DNA from: Promethearchaeota archaeon
GTDB taxonomy: Archaea > Asgardarchaeota > Lokiarchaeia > Sigyniarchaeales > SOKP01
Reading direction: 5' to 3'
Assembly: GCA_048938855.1 (NCBI GenBank)
Contig: JBHLLT010000012.1
Coordinates: forward strand, 22,297 to 86,296
DNA length: 64,000 nucleotides
This document shows positions 31,493 through 38,821 of the stretch, in pieces. The translations under genes and the position numbers were made by a program. Within the stretch, counting starts at the first letter, position 1; the number at the start of each line of letters is the position of its first letter. The notes below the pieces were generated by a model. The model ran no database searches and had not been told where the DNA came from. It saw nothing but the letters and a program-made list of their open reading frames with translations.

Positions 31493-32041
31493 TTAATCTC
31501 TCGATTCAAATAGATTCACCGATATATCAAGGAGATCTCTACTCGTTTTTCCTTCCTTTATCATTTTTTCAATTTTTTTATTAACTTTATCTTTATCTCC
31601 GTTGGCAAGTGTAATTAAATTCTTCACATTCCAATTTTGATATCTTTTAGAAAGCCCTTGGAAAAAAACCGGAGCGGGGGACATCATGGGTTTTTGAGGT
31701 TGTTCTGGAACTGCTTTACACATCCCAGCTTCTAAATCCAGAAATTCACATTCACTACAAGAATTAATGTTTTTTTGTTTAGCACATTGATTAATTGGAC
31801 AATCCATTCTTTCTTGACAACCTGGGCAGGTGGGATAGTCTTTTAAAAGATCTAAAGTGTTTAAAAATCCCGAGAAATTATCTTTATTAAATTCTGGGTT
31901 AAACATTAAAACTACTCCTTGGATCATAGGGTCTTCAAAAACTTTAAATAAATATTTTGCTGAATCTTGCATCTTGGTTGTATTACTATCACATAAATCA
32001 CAATTTAAACCGCATGTAGTTATTTCATAATCCTTTGTCAT
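31493..32041 (-). CDS. DUF3795 family Cys-rich (Fe-S/Zn) protein
   Basis: CGLNCDLC, CPGC, C.INQCA....CSECEF. Confidence 0.8.
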   Translation of the reverse strand: MTKDYEITTCGLNCDLCDSNTTKMQDSAKYLFKVFEDPMIQGVVLMFNPEFNKDNFSGFLNTLDLLKDYPTCPGCQERMDCPINQCAKQKNINSCSECEFLDLEAGMCKAVPEQPQKPMMSPAPVFFQGLSKRYQNWNVKNLITLANGDKDKVNKKIEKMIKEGKTSRDLLDISVNLFESRD

Positions 32042-34294: not shown

Positions 34295-37200
34295 TTAAGC
34301 TTCAGGTATTAAGATCACAAATGAATCTCCTTCAACCCATATCTTTCCATCATATATATTTAATACCCGCTCAACCAAAAGGAAACCTAGAATTATTTCC
34401 TTTATTTTGCTGTCCTTTTCCCATTCTTTCTTAAATATCAGTTTTTTCCCAATATTGGAAATCTCTTTTTGATAATCAATAAATTTTATTTTAATAAAGT
34501 TCAAGCCATCTTCTAGACTTCTAATTATAATAATTTTAATTTCTATTGTTGGATTTCTATTATATCTTATCGAACTGATTAAGATATTGACAAGAACATC
34601 GACCAAAAATTTATCCGCTTTAACATACAATTCTTCATGTGGTTGTTCAACGGATATATTTATTTTTTTATTAGAATAGCTATTTGTAATAAATTCTATG
34701 ACGTTTTGAATTACACTATTTAAATTTACTGATTCAATTATTACATTGGTTTCATTAATTTGTCTTAATTTTTGAATGATATATATTAATAATTTCGCAT
34801 TAATGCATTGATCTTTAACATATTCTAATAAATCGCTTTTAGATTTTAATAAAATTTGATTTTCTTGTTTATCAAATGCGTCTATATGAGATTGCATGCT
34901 TTTTATTATATTATTTATATCATTTACAAATAATTCCTTGTAAAAATATTCTCTATCAAAATCTTGGTGTATATTTTCTAGACTCAGACGTAAATTCTCT
35001 TCAGCTTGTCTACGTAAAATCACATTTTTTAGAATATCAGAAATAATGCTTAGCAATTCTAGATTATCATCTAACCAATGGTTCTCAGGTGTAATATTAT
35101 CAAACCAAATTAAAGCTTCTAATTCTCCATTAATCTTTATTGAAAAAGTTAAAAGATTTTTAATTTTATGAATTTCCAGAAATGTCTTTAACTTAATTGC
35201 AGATTTAGAAAGATTACGTATATTTTTAACATATAAATAATCGATATTTTTTAATTCTTCAATCAAATATGGAAAATTACTAATTTTAATCTCTTCAGGT
35301 AAACTAACTTGAGGGTACAACAGTTTACCGTACCACATATAGCCAGGTTTTGGGAAATTGAGATTATTGTTAAAGATATAAAGACAGGCTCGTGCAGCAT
35401 TAACAAATTCACCGATATCTCTAAGAGAATCTATCATTGCTTGATCAAAATCTGTTATTCCTACAAATCTAGATACAATTTTGGTAATGACTGCTTTTAA
35501 CCTAGATATTTTCATCAATTCCTGTTCAATTCTTTTTTCTTCCGTTATATTTTGATATATTATTTGATAAAATGTTTCATCTCCAATATCAACAACAGAG
35601 GTTTGCATATTTACCCAGATGAGATTACCGTTTTTTTGATAAAGTTGAATTTCAAATGGAGGATACATTTTACCTCTCTCTTCACTCTTAAATCTTTTAA
35701 GAACTTCTACTACATAATCTTCGTGGATAATTGAGAGATCAACAAATTTTCTTCCCAATAAGTCTTCTCTTGAGTAACCTAACATAGTTTCCAATGCTGG
35801 ATTTAAATCGACCAATGATCCTTTAGGATCAATTAAAAGTATGGAAAATGGCGATTCTTTAAAAAGATGCCGGAATTTTATTTCGGAATGCTTAAGTTTT
35901 ATTTCCGCTTCTATTCTCTTACTAATATTACGAATAATATATTGAATAAGAATTTGTCCTCCCATTTGAACTTCATTTACACTAATTTCTACCGGAATGA
36001 GGTTTCCTGAATTGTCAATAACTTCTAATCTAAATGGAAATGGAGAGTCAAGTTGCTCAAACACTTCCTCATTAAAATCTATATTAATAATGCCACTCAA
36101 AATTTGACTAGAATGCAATCCAATAAAGTCTTCAAAAGGGCGGTGAAACAATTTTTCAGCTTCTTCATTCACATCCATTATTATTCCTGAATTTTTATCA
36201 ATTATCAAAATTGCATCTCTAGCAGCTTTAAATAATGCCTCATACCGTAATTCAGCTATTTTAAGAGCTTCAATTGATGGTTGATATAAACTTAATTGAT
36301 GAATTAATGTGTTATGAACAGTTTCAAGGCAATCTAATACATGCTTTTTATCTAAATAATTTTTTTTAATATCATCAAAATAGTTGAGTATTATTGAGCT
36401 AAATTGGTTTATAATATTTTTAGGAAATTTTTCATTGTAATATACAATTAATGATAAAGGTAATAATCCTCCTCTAGTACTCTCATTTTCAATATAATCA
36501 AAATAGATTGCTGCGTTTGAATTTAAATGGGGAAATGGTAGGATTACTGATGCAGGCTTGAGTTCACCTCCTCCAAAAATAAACTGTGATACAGAGATGC
36601 TTTTTATTGATATTAATTCCGGATTTTCAAAAGCATTTTTAGGATGGACTGCTTCGACTTTAACCCCTAAATTTTCATCCCATCGACAGAAAATTATCCC
36701 AACTTCACTTTTTGGGATATATTTATCAACTCTCTCCGCAATTTTAAGTGAAAGCCAATTAAATGCTTCATCTATATTAATGTTTTTCACCGCACTAGTC
36801 AAAAAGGATTTTATTGGTCTTTTGCTAAGTTTCTTTATTCCCATTGCGTCTTCAAGTTCTTTTATATCTGGTTGTGTTAAATCAGCCTTATTGAAAAGGA
36901 TAAGAAGAGGTAATTCACTTAACTCTGGCTTACCCGCAATTTCATGTAATAATTCGCGTGCAAATGAGAACTTAATTTTATCAGTAATATCCAATACAAA
37001 AATTAATCCATCTTGATTTTTAAGATAAGGTTTCCATACTTCTTTAACTTTATATTTTCCTGGAATATCATATGTTAATAAAGATACATTATTAACGAGG
37101 ATTCTCGATATATCTACATTTAGTGTTGGAAATAACGTTTTTGACACAGATTTTCTTCGGGTTCGAATTATCGTTGTCTTACCTGCTAGCGAAAGTCCAA

Positions 37201-37678
37201 AAATTAATATCTTTGCTTCTTTTTGTTCAAAAATGACTTTCTCTTCTGGAAAAGATGCATGAAACGAATTTAAAAGCTGCATAATTTCCGTTAATTTCTT
37301 TGGATCTCCTTTATAAATTCTGGAATTTACATAAAAAGCTTTGAAACCTTCATCAATTTTTTTGAAATCTTCAATAAATCCCTCCAAAAACTTTTGAGCT
37401 AAATTTGTATTTATTCTGGATTTGCTATCAATAACGAGTGAAATTAAAAGATGCTCATGTCCTGTATTTGAATATTCGCTGGGAATATCGAAGATTAAAT
37501 TAGCAGTTTTGAAAGTTCCAAATGTATGCTTGAAAAAACCAGTATCATATAGATCAATCAATAATGGAACTTGTTTAATATCCTCTCTTTCAATTGTATC
37601 CGGTGTTTTTAAAAATATATATGGAGGAAAATATGGATTACGATGACTTAAAACTAGAAACCTCATTTTGATATTCAC
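34295..37678 (-). CDS. Longin/uDENN-like, Arf-like GTPase, longin/uDENN-like, PAS, PAS, GAF, degenerate HisKA/HATPase fusion protein
   Basis: G1 GLSLAGKT, G2 PT, G3 YDIPGK, G4 NKAD, G5 TSA; PAS ends RNISKR and QNITEE; GAF with W...LELL; kinase remnant without His or DxGxG. Confidence 0.85.
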   Translation of the reverse strand: MNIKMRFLVLSHRNPYFPPYIFLKTPDTIEREDIKQVPLLIDLYDTGFFKHTFGTFKTANLIFDIPSEYSNTGHEHLLISLVIDSKSRINTNLAQKFLEGFIEDFKKIDEGFKAFYVNSRIYKGDPKKLTEIMQLLNSFHASFPEEKVIFEQKEAKILIFGLSLAGKTTIIRTRRKSVSKTLFPTLNVDISRILVNNVSLLTYDIPGKYKVKEVWKPYLKNQDGLIFVLDITDKIKFSFARELLHEIAGKPELSELPLLILFNKADLTQPDIKELEDAMGIKKLSKRPIKSFLTSAVKNINIDEAFNWLSLKIAERVDKYIPKSEVGIIFCRWDENLGVKVEAVHPKNAFENPELISIKSISVSQFIFGGGELKPASVILPFPHLNSNAAIYFDYIENESTRGGLLPLSLIVYYNEKFPKNIINQFSSIILNYFDDIKKNYLDKKHVLDCLETVHNTLIHQLSLYQPSIEALKIAELRYEALFKAARDAILIIDKNSGIIMDVNEEAEKLFHRPFEDFIGLHSSQILSGIINIDFNEEVFEQLDSPFPFRLEVIDNSGNLIPVEISVNEVQMGGQILIQYIIRNISKRIEAEIKLKHSEIKFRHLFKESPFSILLIDPKGSLVDLNPALETMLGYSREDLLGRKFVDLSIIHEDYVVEVLKRFKSEERGKMYPPFEIQLYQKNGNLIWVNMQTSVVDIGDETFYQIIYQNITEEKRIEQELMKISRLKAVITKIVSRFVGITDFDQAMIDSLRDIGEFVNAARACLYIFNNNLNFPKPGYMWYGKLLYPQVSLPEEIKISNFPYLIEELKNIDYLYVKNIRNLSKSAIKLKTFLEIHKIKNLLTFSIKINGELEALIWFDNITPENHWLDDNLELLSIISDILKNVILRRQAEENLRLSLENIHQDFDREYFYKELFVNDINNIIKSMQSHIDAFDKQENQILLKSKSDLLEYVKDQCINAKLLIYIIQKLRQINETNVIIESVNLNSVIQNVIEFITNSYSNKKINISVEQPHEELYVKADKFLVDVLVNILISSIRYNRNPTIEIKIIIIRSLEDGLNFIKIKFIDYQKEISNIGKKLIFKKEWEKDSKIKEIILGFLLVERVLNIYDGKIWVEGDSFVILIPEA

Positions 37679-37952: not shown

Positions 37953-38177
37953 TTAATACCCTTCATTCAATTGATAATAAAATCCTTCATTTTTGAGAAT
38001 TTTCAAGATACCATTCTTTCTATATATATTGAAGAGCTTTTTGACCTCAGAAGGAGGTATACCATTATTTTCAGCTATAATTTCGATCATAAATTTAGGA
38101 AATTTCTTATAGCTTTTTTGCAGAGAGTGAAGTGCTTCTAAAAACCTTGCTGAATAGTCTATTTCTGATATAACCAT
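37953..38177 (-). CDS. Small stand-alone winged-helix protein
   Basis: IAENNGIPPSEVKKLFNIYRKNGILK...GFYYQL; AGGTGAGGAG SD before the ATG at 38177. Confidence 0.65.
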   Translation of the reverse strand: MVISEIDYSARFLEALHSLQKSYKKFPKFMIEIIAENNGIPPSEVKKLFNIYRKNGILKILKNEGFYYQLNEGY

Positions 38178-38365
38178 TCTCCTCACCTTAACTCGTTAGA
38201 AAATAATTTTATTTTAATACTTATAATACTCTTAATTCTATTAAGAGTATGATATATCGGATATATAAAGATTAGCATTAACAATAGTTAATGTAGTGAT
38301 AATTTGTCATATCACAATATAAATTCATCAATATAATATTTCAAAACAAAATTAATTCAACCAAA

Positions 38366-38821
38366 CTAATCATCAGCAAACCAATAACGCTTGCCTTTTT
38401 TCATCCAATTATCTAAACCCATCTCTTTAATACCTTCAAAGTTTTTTAAATAAGAATCTCCATATAGCTCTTGCTTATTTGTAATTCGAAGTGTTTCACA
38501 ATTCTCATATATCTCACATTCATAACAAGCAAAGTACCTTTTACTACGACAACATTTTCTAACCTTACAACTATGTTCAGTATCTTCCTTTTCTCTGCAT
38601 ATCTTTTCACATTTCAATTCTGTAATGAACTGGAGCATTTCATGAAATTTATCATATTCTTTTAGTTTTTCTGTAAATAAATTCTTCGCGGTTTTTTCAA
38701 ATTTGTACTGATTTAATTTGTTTTCTAATTTAATTGCGGCATCAGAAATTTCACCTAAATAACCAGCACAATCTCCACAATAGAGTCCACAATAGGCGAG
38801 TAATTTTTTACTATCTTTCAT
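38366..38821 (-). CDS. DUF3795 family Cys-rich protein
   Basis: YCGLYCGDC, C..C, CKVRKCC...ACYECE. Confidence 0.82.
   Translation of the reverse strand: MKDSKKLLAYCGLYCGDCAGYLGEISDAAIKLENKLNQYKFEKTAKNLFTEKLKEYDKFHEMLQFITELKCEKICREKEDTEHSCKVRKCCRSKRYFACYECEIYENCETLRITNKQELYGDSYLKNFEGIKEMGLDNWMKKGKRYWFADD

What the first reader, a model, noticed from the sequence alone, without database searches (positions are those of the whole stretch)
34295..37678. Arf-like small GTPase with flanking longin/uDENN-like domains fused to a PAS-PAS-GAF pseudo-histidine kinase
Seen: all five G motifs of an Arf-type GTPase (about aa 156-315), with the switch-II Gln replaced (YDIPGK against WDxGGQ). It is bracketed by two longin/uDENN-like domains (the second starts GIIFCRWDENLGVKVEAVHP and contains RGG), then two PAS, one GAF and a kinase-like tail. 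Compared with the intact kinase at 56375, the tail has lost the phospho-His (FVNDINN against FTHDISN), the N-box Asn, DNGxG (IDYQKEI) and GxGLG (KEIILG). Established: longin/DENN domains regulate small GTPases in eukaryotes. Inference: a prokaryotic sensor scaffold rewired so that the output is a GTPase switch rather than phosphotransfer, bridging two-component and eukaryote-type signalling.
Basis: partly seen in the sequence, partly recalled or inferred. Interest (0 to 1): 0.85.

Follow-up and report, generated by a model that had tools for sequence, protein, structure and literature searches.

The report
Longin-flanked Arf GTPase, dead sensor kinase
A Loki-type Asgard archaeon encodes one conserved protein in which an Arf-like GTP-binding domain sits between two longin domains of the kind that switch off Arf and Rag GTPases in eukaryotes, fused to PAS-PAS-GAF sensors and a catalytically dead histidine kinase; this copy has also lost the residues needed for fast GTP hydrolysis.

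Summary
The ORF at 34295-37678 (-) is real; its likely start is the ATG at 37666, giving 1123 aa. Its order is longin, Arf-family G domain, longin, PAS, PAS, GAF, then a histidine-kinase tail lacking the phospho-His, N-box Asn, G1 and G2. More than 120 sequence clusters share this architecture. All matches in the genome sample lie in one Lokiarchaeial family (29 of 68 genomes, 0 of 233 elsewhere in the phylum), so it is not an assembly chimera.

Both flanking domains fold as FLCN/NPRL2/Lst4-type longins (Z 12.7 and 16.0). Relatives carry the longin-GAP signature: a GP motif and a beta4-beta5 arginine in the first longin, and WD-x3-G plus invariant RGG in the second.

Stand-alone cores, PAS-only forms and forms with an intact kinase also exist. 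The window's clade is the most degenerate: kinase dead, switch-II Gln to Lys, and first-longin GP and Arg lost. Every domain is still under purifying selection (dN/dS 0.09-0.28).

I read it as a sensor-coupled, slow or GTP-locked Arf module that signals through protein contacts. Fusions of this general kind are in print; this family is not.

This scan has already followed up orthologues in at least ten other genomes, with the same reading.

The parts
34295..37666 (-). Whole gene, 1123 aa from the likely ATG start. The open frame extends to a GTG at 37678. The stop codon is at 34295-34297.
   Evidence: Relatives start MRxLILSH and are 1123 aa. The Atlas record starts at residue 5.
37235..37666 (-). 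N-terminal longin domain (aa 5-148), NPRL2/FLCN-like. The GP motif has degenerated to PP (aa 18-19). The beta4-beta5 loop Arg is replaced by Asn71 (37466-37468).
   Evidence: AF2 pLDDT 90.9 with strand/helix order b-b-a-b-b-b-a-a. Foldseek top hits are GATOR1 NPRL2 chains, E 1.5e-5. VIA Z 12.7 to 8yqg_B and 12.2 to 6nzd_H. Motif states.
36734..37234 (-). Arf-family G domain (aa 149-315). G1-G5 are intact. The switch-II Gln is replaced by Lys208 (37055-37057).
   Evidence: Pfam Arf 120.3 bits. Arf1 E 1.9e-25. Alignment; codon.
36350..36712 (-). Second longin domain (aa 323-443). It has W333-D334-x3-G338 before strand 2 and an invariant R402-G-G in the beta4-beta5 loop (R402 at 36473-36475).
   Evidence: AF2 pLDDT 85.7. 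VIA Z 16.0, rmsd 2.2 A over 134 residues, to the Lokiarchaeal longin 8yqg_B; Lst4 13.0; FLCN chain 12.0. Foldseek. Invariance.
36233..36349 (-). Long connecting helix (aa 444-482) between the second longin and PAS1.
   Evidence: The AF2 model has a single helix over model residues 129-166.
35894..36232 (-). PAS domain 1 (about aa 483-595).
   Evidence: Pfam PAS_9/PAS/PAS_8 with two stretches; TIGR00229.
35516..35890 (-). PAS domain 2 (aa 597-721).
   Evidence: TIGR00229 best stretch 597-721, 125.4 bits for the protein. PAS_9 at 611-713.
35030..35437 (-). GAF-like domain (aa 748-883).
   Evidence: Pfam GAF 21.9 bits against a cut-off of 22.4 here. Above cut-off in the relative P0076: GAF 25.7, GAF_3 30.4.
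34679..34966 (-). DHp-like helical hairpin (aa 905-1000). Asn919 stands in place of the phospho-accepting His (34922-34924).
   Evidence: Alignment with relatives that keep FTHD and with the kinase at 56375. Codon.
34298..34678 (-). CA-like (HATPase_c-like) domain (aa 1001-1127). It lacks the N-box Asn (S1035) and the G1 and G2 boxes.
   Evidence: HATPase_c 20.7 bits, below the 26.4 cut-off. Motifs. dN/dS 0.10 among 23 orthologues.

Best explanation
This is a cytosolic signalling protein of one Lokiarchaeial family, built on an older self-contained module: longin, Arf-like G domain, longin.

Inferred mechanism in relatives: the two longins pair within the chain, as in C9orf72-SMCR8, FLCN-FNIP2 and NPRL2-NPRL3, and cup the Arf-like domain. 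The first longin (GP motif plus a beta4-beta5 Arg, like SMCR8/FLCN/NPRL2) supplies the arginine finger. The second longin (WD-x3-G, like C9orf72) holds the G domain. The PAS-PAS-GAF sensors connect to this module through the long helix after the second longin and modulate it.

Shown for this clade: the histidine-kinase tail is a pseudokinase, and the hydrolysis set is dismantled (Gln208 to Lys, first-longin Gly to Pro, Arg71 to Asn). All nucleotide-binding motifs, the second longin's WD/G/RGG and every domain remain under purifying selection.

Inferred for this clade: the protein is a sensor-coupled, slowly hydrolysing or GTP-locked Arf module on a dimeric pseudokinase scaffold. Its output is by protein-protein contacts, not phosphotransfer.
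For: Domain identities.

Longin-GAP signature:
- GP motif before strand 2 and an Arg finger: PMC12290439.
- Arg between beta4 and beta5 of the longin: bioRxiv 10.64898/2026.01.05.697756.
- C9orf72 W33-D34 and SMCR8 Arg147 cupping ARF1: PMC8213707.
- In relatives the first longin has xGPx and (A/G)RG in the beta4-beta5 loop. The second longin has WDExxG(P/V/L) and RGG.

Coupling of residues: the first-longin Arg is kept in 65 of 65 sequences with switch-II Gln or His. It is lost in 45 of 55 with Lys or Tyr, which represent two separate Gln-loss clades. The second-longin Arg is kept in 118 of 120.

Polarity: stand-alone 473-487 aa cores carry all motifs. PAS-only forms have no kinase. Forms of about 830 aa have intact FTHD, NA..Y and DNGIG motifs and HATPase_c at 50-64 bits. 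The score falls to 20.7 bits here.

Maintained function: dN/dS is 0.089 (Arf), 0.10 (CA-like), 0.11 (second longin) and 0.16 (first longin) among 23 orthologues.

Not a chimera: the same architecture occurs in more than 100 independent assemblies.
Against: - Longin pairing, cupping of the G domain and which Arg faces the nucleotide are all inferred.
- The two longins are not demonstrably homologous to each other or to eukaryotic GAP longins by sequence (hhalign E 0.047, probability 1%; no Pfam or PDB sequence hits).
- The residue coupling rests on only two independent Gln-loss events.
- In five other degenerate lineages the second longin's Arg decays with the G domain, while the first longin keeps GP and Arg. 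The assignment of the cis finger is therefore not uniform.
- No conserved neighbour or partner was found.
- There are no biochemical data for any member.
Confidence: 0.5

Rival explanations
1. Pure scaffold or 'reverse-signalling' pseudokinase, like DivL. The conserved DHp/CA-like tail binds a response regulator or an active kinase. The GTP-bound G module is only a structural element.
For: The CA-like domain is as constrained as the G domain (dN/dS 0.10) although all catalytic motifs are gone. The tail is closely related to intact Lokiarchaeal kinases such as the one at 56375, which sits beside a receiver protein. Many genomes hold a second paralogue of about 950 aa.
Against: The window's own genome (97% complete) has no second full-length paralogue. 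The G domain keeps every nucleotide-binding motif and is the most constrained domain, which is more than a filler needs. Kinase-less relatives show the N-terminal module works without any kinase tail.
Confidence: 0.2
2. Sensor-regulated GAP acting in trans. The second longin, with its invariant WD/G/RGG, deactivates one of the many free Arf/Rag-like GTPases. The in-cis G domain acts as a pseudo-substrate or autoinhibitor.
For: The second-longin Arg is kept in 118 of 120 sequences even after the in-cis Gln is lost. The genome holds over 20 small-GTPase loci. The paralogue clade of about 950 aa has a Gtr1/RagA-type GTPase gene directly upstream in 7 loci.
Against: The window's clade has no conserved GTPase neighbour. 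In lineages where the in-cis G domain is dead, the second-longin Arg is lost too, which argues that it serves the in-cis domain.
Confidence: 0.15
3. Still an active kinase that uses a non-canonical acceptor or nucleotide site.
For: The DHp/CA-like fold is retained and conserved. The G1 Asp is kept.
Against: The His, the N-box Asn and the G1 and G2 glycines are all absent. HATPase_c is below its cut-off and there is no HisKA hit.
Confidence: 0.04
4. Assembly chimera or a decaying pseudogene.
For: The source is a MAG. Several catalytic residues are lost.
Against: There are no stops. The same order of domains occurs in more than 100 independent assemblies and 29 of 68 genomes of the family. dN/dS is 0.09-0.28 in all domains.
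Confidence: 0.01

Closest known systems
C9orf72-SMCR8(-WDR41) longin-pair ARF GAP (PMC8213707; PMC12290439)
   Same: Two longin domains act with an Arf-family GTPase. One longin has a WD motif followed five residues later by G(P), as in C9orf72 W33-D34/G38-P39. The other has GP plus an Arg finger. VIA Z is 9.8-10.8 to 7o2w_A and 6lt0_B.
   Different: Here the GTPase and both longins are one chain, with no DENN domains and no WDR41. This copy lacks the finger Arg and the GP glycine of the first longin and the substrate's Gln. Pairing and GAP activity are untested.
FLCN-FNIP2 / Lst7-Lst4 and GATOR1 NPRL2-NPRL3 (Rag GAPs)
   Same: These are the best structural matches of both domains: NPRL2 chains at Foldseek E 1.5e-5, FLCN chain Z 12.0-12.2, Lst4 longin Z 10.1-13.0. 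The Arg lies in a longin loop.
   Different: Their substrates are Rag heterodimers with roadblock domains. Here the G domain is Arf-like by sequence and is in cis. There is no sequence-level match.
Asgard multidomain small GTPases and NPRL2-like longin fusions (PMC10933270; PMC11914678; bioRxiv 10.1101/2020.10.19.343400)
   Same: Published surveys note Asgard Arf/Rag-like GTPases fused to longin and/or roadblock domains. They also note NPRL2-like longins fused to two-component domains.
   Different: None of the texts I could search describes the architecture longin-Arf-longin + PAS/GAF + (pseudo)kinase, its GAP-type motifs or its stepwise decay. Here the second domain is a longin, not a roadblock.
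DivL-type pseudo-histidine kinases (own knowledge: Caulobacter DivL, His replaced by Tyr)
   Same: A PAS-containing kinase chassis has lost phosphotransfer yet is conserved and signals by protein contacts.
   Different: DivL keeps an ATP-binding CA domain and has no GTPase or longin parts. Here all ATP-binding boxes are gone.
Actinobacterial conservon CvnA-D and MglA/MglB (own knowledge; the conservon was a lead from scan notes)
   Same: These are prokaryotic systems that combine a kinase-like sensor, a roadblock/longin-superfamily regulator and a small Ras-like GTPase.
   Different: Their parts are separate proteins, the regulators are roadblock folds and the GTPases are MglA-like. Not compared here with tools.

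Membership tests
Arf family small GTPase (Pfam PF00025) | Match to the family model above the curated cut-off | tested here: met
   120.3 bits against a cut-off of 22.3, aa 149-311. Arf1 E 1.9e-25.
Arf family small GTPase (Pfam PF00025) | G1-G5 nucleotide-binding motifs | tested here: met
   GLSLAGKT, T185, DIPG, NKAD and TSA.
Arf family small GTPase (Pfam PF00025) | Catalytic switch-II Gln (Arf1 Q71, WDxGGQ) | tested here: not met
   Lys208 (AAA at 37055-37057). Gln is present in 61 relatives.
Arf family small GTPase (Pfam PF00025) | N-terminal amphipathic or myristoylated helix for membrane binding | tested here: not met
   The G domain is internal and is preceded by a 148-aa longin domain.
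Arf family small GTPase (Pfam PF00025) | GTP binding and hydrolysis | not testable with these tools
   Needs purified protein.
Longin-domain GAP (FLCN / NPRL2 / SMCR8-C9orf72 type) | Longin fold (b-b-a-b-b-b-a-a) | tested here: met
   Both domains. VIA Z 12.7 and 16.0 to a solved Lokiarchaeal longin, and 12.0-12.2 to the FLCN chain. Foldseek.
Longin-domain GAP (FLCN / NPRL2 / SMCR8-C9orf72 type) | GP motif at the start of strand 2 (PMC12290439) | tested here: not met
   In this copy the first longin has PP and the second has G338-V. GP is present in the first longin of 34 or more relatives and in the second longin of some.
Longin-domain GAP (FLCN / NPRL2 / SMCR8-C9orf72 type) | Arginine finger in the beta4-beta5 loop of a longin | tested here: inconclusive
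   First longin: Asn71 here, Arg in 75 of 121 relatives. Second longin: R402 is invariant and lies between model strands 4 and 5. Whether it faces the nucleotide was not modelled.
Longin-domain GAP (FLCN / NPRL2 / SMCR8-C9orf72 type) | Two longins pair and cup the GTPase | not tested
Longin-domain GAP (FLCN / NPRL2 / SMCR8-C9orf72 type) | DENN domain after the longin | tested here: not met
   The Arf domain follows the first longin; a helix and PAS follow the second.
Longin-domain GAP (FLCN / NPRL2 / SMCR8-C9orf72 type) | Sequence-level homology to the eukaryotic families | tested here: inconclusive
   No hit with profiles against PDB sequences. Pfam on every member gave one Folliculin hit at E 0.1. 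An Atlas neighbour cluster has NPR2 in 19% of members at score 0.83, which is a lead only.
Two-component histidine kinase (HisKA + HATPase_c) | Phospho-accepting His in the H-box | tested here: not met
   N919 in FVNDINN, against FTHD in relatives and in the kinase at 56375.
Two-component histidine kinase (HisKA + HATPase_c) | N-box Asn, G1 DxGxG and G2 GxGxG of the ATP site | tested here: not met
   S1035, DYQKE and ILGFLL.
Two-component histidine kinase (HisKA + HATPase_c) | Pfam models above cut-off | tested here: not met
   HATPase_c 20.7 bits against 26.4, and no HisKA hit. Relatives P0103, P0106 and P0108 score 50.5-63.8.
PAS / GAF sensor domains | Family models above cut-off | tested here: met
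   PAS: TIGR00229 125.4 bits and PAS_9 88.2 bits, two stretches. GAF: 21.9 against 22.4 here, and above cut-off in P0076.

The most novel reading that the evidence does not exclude
The longin-Arf-longin core is a single-chain, prokaryotic forerunner of the eukaryotic longin-pair GAP complexes (C9orf72-SMCR8, FLCN-FNIP, GATOR1), with the substrate GTPase built in. In this family its GTP state is set by ligand binding to the PAS/GAF domains. That would make it a ligand-gated small-GTPase switch that predates eukaryotic nutrient-sensing GAPs. The window's clade would then be a GTP-locked derivative that signals as a pseudo-GTPase/pseudokinase scaffold.
Probability: 0.25. Interest if true: 0.8.

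Novelty: new variant of a known kind. Interest (0 to 1): 0.6.

Why it matters
Whether Asgard longins already worked as GAPs for Arf/Rag-type GTPases is an open question; PMC12290439 raises it only as a possibility. This family places a candidate GAP pair and its candidate substrate in one polypeptide. Natural variants range from fully equipped (GP, Arg, Gln, active kinase) to stepwise disabled.

That gives a ready-made mutational series for biochemistry and structure work. It is also a concrete case of eukaryote-type GTPase regulation wired to prokaryotic PAS/GAF sensing.

The window's copy is the disabled end of the series. It is useful as a natural negative control and as an example of a conserved triple pseudoenzyme.

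Tried and rejected
- Sequence detection of the flanking domains failed. Pfam and NCBIfam gave nothing on the protein. Pfam on all 60-61 members of each domain alignment gave nothing. Profile searches against PDB sequences gave nothing. Only the fold shows what the domains are.
- hhalign of the first against the second longin was not significant (E 0.047, probability 1%). It did line up the GP/G and Arg positions.
- A roadblock fold for the second domain, as in the published 'longin-GTPase-roadblock' architecture, was rejected. The strand/helix order is that of a longin, and longins outrank roadblocks (Z 16.0, 13.0, 12.0 against about 8-9).
- A PAS/LOV reading of the second domain was rejected (Foldseek TM about 0.3, rmsd 13-24 A).
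- A conserved operon or partner was not found. Neighbours are shared only by a few close genomes. The recurrent ORF inside the gene (36558-37016, +) is an antisense artefact.
- An assembly chimera was rejected.
- The literature searches found no paper with Asgard + longin + histidine kinase, or Asgard + small GTPase + PAS + histidine kinase. No paper was found for the PDB entries 8yqg or 8zla. The supplements of the 2020 preprint are not held.
Full report
**What is there**

The window has about 29% G+C. It lies in a 3.95-Mb genome of 93 contigs that is 97% complete. All relatives of the gene carry Lokiarchaeia/Promethearchaeota labels.

The ORF at 34295-37678 (-) is uninterrupted. It opens with a GTG, but the fifth codon is an ATG (37664-37666). 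Relatives begin there (MRxLILSH, 1123 aa), and the Atlas record also starts at residue 5. I therefore take 34295-37666 as the gene.

About 280 nt of AT-rich spacer lie upstream. A convergent winged-helix gene lies downstream.

**Domains**

- **Arf G domain.** Pfam gives Arf at 120.3 bits over aa 149-311. The G domain aligns to Arf1 over its whole length (E 1.9e-25). All five nucleotide-binding motifs are present, but Lys208 stands where Arf1 has Gln71.
- **Sensors.** There are two PAS domains. GAF scores 21.9 bits against a cut-off of 22.4, and is above the cut-off in the relative P0076.
- **Kinase tail.** HATPase_c scores 20.7 bits against a cut-off of 26.4.
- **No sequence hits.** Residues 1-148 and 316-482 match nothing by sequence, even with profiles.

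**The flanking domains are longins**

I cut both domains out of 59-60 relatives fetched from species-representative genomes and folded them with those alignments.

- **First domain.** pLDDT is 90.9 and the element order is b-b-a-b-b-b-a-a. Its best Foldseek matches are NPRL2 chains of GATOR1 (E 1.5e-5), yeast Npr2, a solved Lokiarchaeal longin (8yqg), FNIP2 and Lst4. By VIA-align, Z is 12.7 to 8yqg_B and 12.2 to the FLCN chain 6nzd_H. A long tail of other longins follows.
- **Second domain.** pLDDT is 85.7, with the same element order followed by one 38-residue helix. Z is 16.0 (rmsd 2.2 A over 134 residues) to 8yqg_B, 13.0 to the Lst4 longin and 12.0 to FLCN. Roadblock domains score only about 8-9.

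No DENN core is present.

**GAP-type motifs**

PMC12290439 defines the eukaryotic longin GAPs by three features:

- a GP motif at the start of strand 2;
- an arginine finger;
- in C9orf72, a W33-D34 pair five residues before G38-P39.

The Avl9 preprint (10.64898/2026.01.05.697756) places the finger between strands 4 and 5 of the longin. PMC8213707 shows the two longins cupping ARF1, with SMCR8 Arg147 at the nucleotide and C9orf72 W33/D34 required for activity.

In this family:

- The first longin of most relatives reads xGPx before strand 2 and (A/G)RG in the beta4-beta5 loop.
- The second longin reads WDExxG(P/V/L) before strand 2 and has an invariant RGG in its beta4-beta5 loop.
- In the window's protein the second longin keeps W333, D334, G338 and R402.
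- The first longin reads PP in place of GP and Asn71 in place of Arg.

**The family and its history**

- **Full architecture.** More than 120 clusters at 90% identity share it.
- **Taxonomic range.** In a sample of 301 genomes of the phylum, matches at E <= 1e-40 occur in 29 of 68 genomes of the window's own family. None occur in the 233 others searched.
- **Tri-domain core.** A profile search of 1.8 billion representatives found about 20 clusters (at 50% identity) with the whole core.
- **Other forms.**
  - Stand-alone proteins of 473-487 aa.
  - Forms ending in two to four PAS domains with no kinase.
  - Forms of about 830 aa with one PAS and an intact kinase.
  - Forms of about 950 aa.
  - The class of about 1123 aa.
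  - Dozens of two-domain longin-Arf proteins of about 315 aa.
- **Stand-alone cores.** They carry GP, both arginines, DxPGQ and WD..G.
- **Kinase decay.** HATPase_c scores fall from 63.8, 59.4 and 50.5 bits in the forms of about 830 aa to about 20 bits in the window's clade. The His, N-box, G1 and G2 are lost in steps.
- **Tree.** On a FastTree of the core (midpoint root, for drawing only), the window sits in a crown clade that reads PP / K-or-N / K / N. These are the GP position, the first-longin Arg, the switch-II residue and the H-box residue.

**Coupled losses**

- Among 120 sequences, the first-longin Arg is present in all 61 with switch-II Gln and all 4 with His. His is the residue Sar1 uses (own knowledge).
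- It is lost in 45 of 55 with Lys or Tyr.
- The Lys and Tyr states arose in two separate clades. Basal members of the Lys clade still have Arg.
- The second-longin Arg is kept in 118 of 120.

I read this as follows. The first longin (SMCR8/FLCN/NPRL2-like) gives the in-cis finger that works with the Gln. The second longin (C9orf72-like) holds the G domain.

This is inference from only two independent events. In five other degenerate lineages the pattern is the reverse: the G domain and the second-longin Arg decay while the first longin keeps GP and Arg.

**Still functional**

Among 23 orthologues that all have Lys208, dN/dS by the NG86 method is:

| Domain | dN/dS |
|---|---|
| Arf | 0.089 |
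| CA-like | 0.10 |
| PAS1 | 0.10 |
| Second longin | 0.11 |
| First longin | 0.16 |
| PAS2 | 0.18 |
| DHp-like | 0.25 |
| Connecting helix | 0.26 |
| GAF | 0.28 |

dS is near 0.8-1.0, so they are rough. The dead kinase domain is as constrained as the G domain.

**Context**

No neighbour is conserved across the family. The window's genome has a single copy.

**Mechanism**

- **Shown:** the domain identities, the loss of kinase and hydrolysis residues, the retention of nucleotide-binding motifs, the conservation and the polarity of change.
- **Inferred:** intramolecular longin pairing, in-cis GAP action in relatives, a slow or GTP-locked state here, control by PAS/GAF through the connecting helix, dimerisation through the DHp-like hairpin, and output by protein contacts.

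Lys at the catalytic Gln position is known from Ras Q61K to impair hydrolysis (own knowledge). The rivals are a DivL-like scaffold, a trans-acting GAP and a residual kinase; they are set out separately in this report.

**What is known already**

- Asgard GTPases fused to longin and/or roadblock domains (PMC10933270; PMC11914678).
- NPRL2-like longins fused to two-component domains (10.1101/2020.10.19.343400).
- GAP-type motifs in free Asgard longins (PMC12290439).

I found no text describing this architecture, its motifs or its decay series. NCBI records call these proteins 'PAS domain S-box protein' or 'ADP-ribosylation factor-like protein'.

This scan's own notes show orthologues followed up in at least ten other genomes with the same reading. 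My analysis was done before I read those notes and it agrees with them.

**Verdict**

This is a new variant of a known kind, and the window's copy is the most degenerate member of the series.

Noticed in passing
window 56375-58011 (+): There is an intact small histidine kinase (257 aa; FTHDISN, NAIIYNRN, DNGIGI, GMGLGLSL). A 258-aa protein with a C-terminal receiver domain follows it. The kinase's tail is closely similar to the tails of the active relatives of the finding.
   Followed up: partly
window 31493-32041 (-) and 38366-38821 (-): Two DUF3795 (PF12675) paralogues lie either side of the finding. Neither is conserved next to the family's gene in other genomes.
   Followed up: partly
window 37953-38186 (-): A small ORF of about 72-77 aa sits behind a GGTGAGG site, upstream of the finding. 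A homologue lies in the fetched flanks of only 3 of the 61 related loci compared; its function is unknown.
   Followed up: partly
L066:259-1917 (-), own genome contig C43: A 552-aa protein has a first-longin-type domain (38% identical to aa 14-142 of the finding) fused to PAS and GAF, with no G domain. A GTPase-like ORF of 360 aa lies next to it (C43:96663-97229). This looks like a split relative of the same wiring.
   Followed up: partly
own genome contig C41:91054-94770 (L068): Two neighbouring 368-aa ORFs each hold an Arf/Rag-like G domain. One also matches the second longin upstream of its G domain, giving a longin-GTPase architecture.
   Followed up: no
L047:530-1474 (+), and likewise in L048, L049, L052, L053, L054 and L057: The paralogue clade of about 950 aa has a Gtr1/RagA-type GTPase gene (PF04670, 84.5 bits) directly upstream in 7 loci. 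The window's clade does not.
   Followed up: partly
P0170, P0181, P0212, P0164, P0166 (relatives): Independent lineages of the tri-domain family have a degenerate G domain (P-loop, DxxG or NKxD lost). They have also lost the second-longin Arg, yet the first longin keeps GP and Arg. This is the reverse of the pattern in the window's clade.
   Followed up: partly
window 36558-37016 (+): A 152-aa ORF antisense to the G domain recurs in 22-25 related loci. This follows from conservation of the sense gene; it is not a gene.
   Followed up: yes
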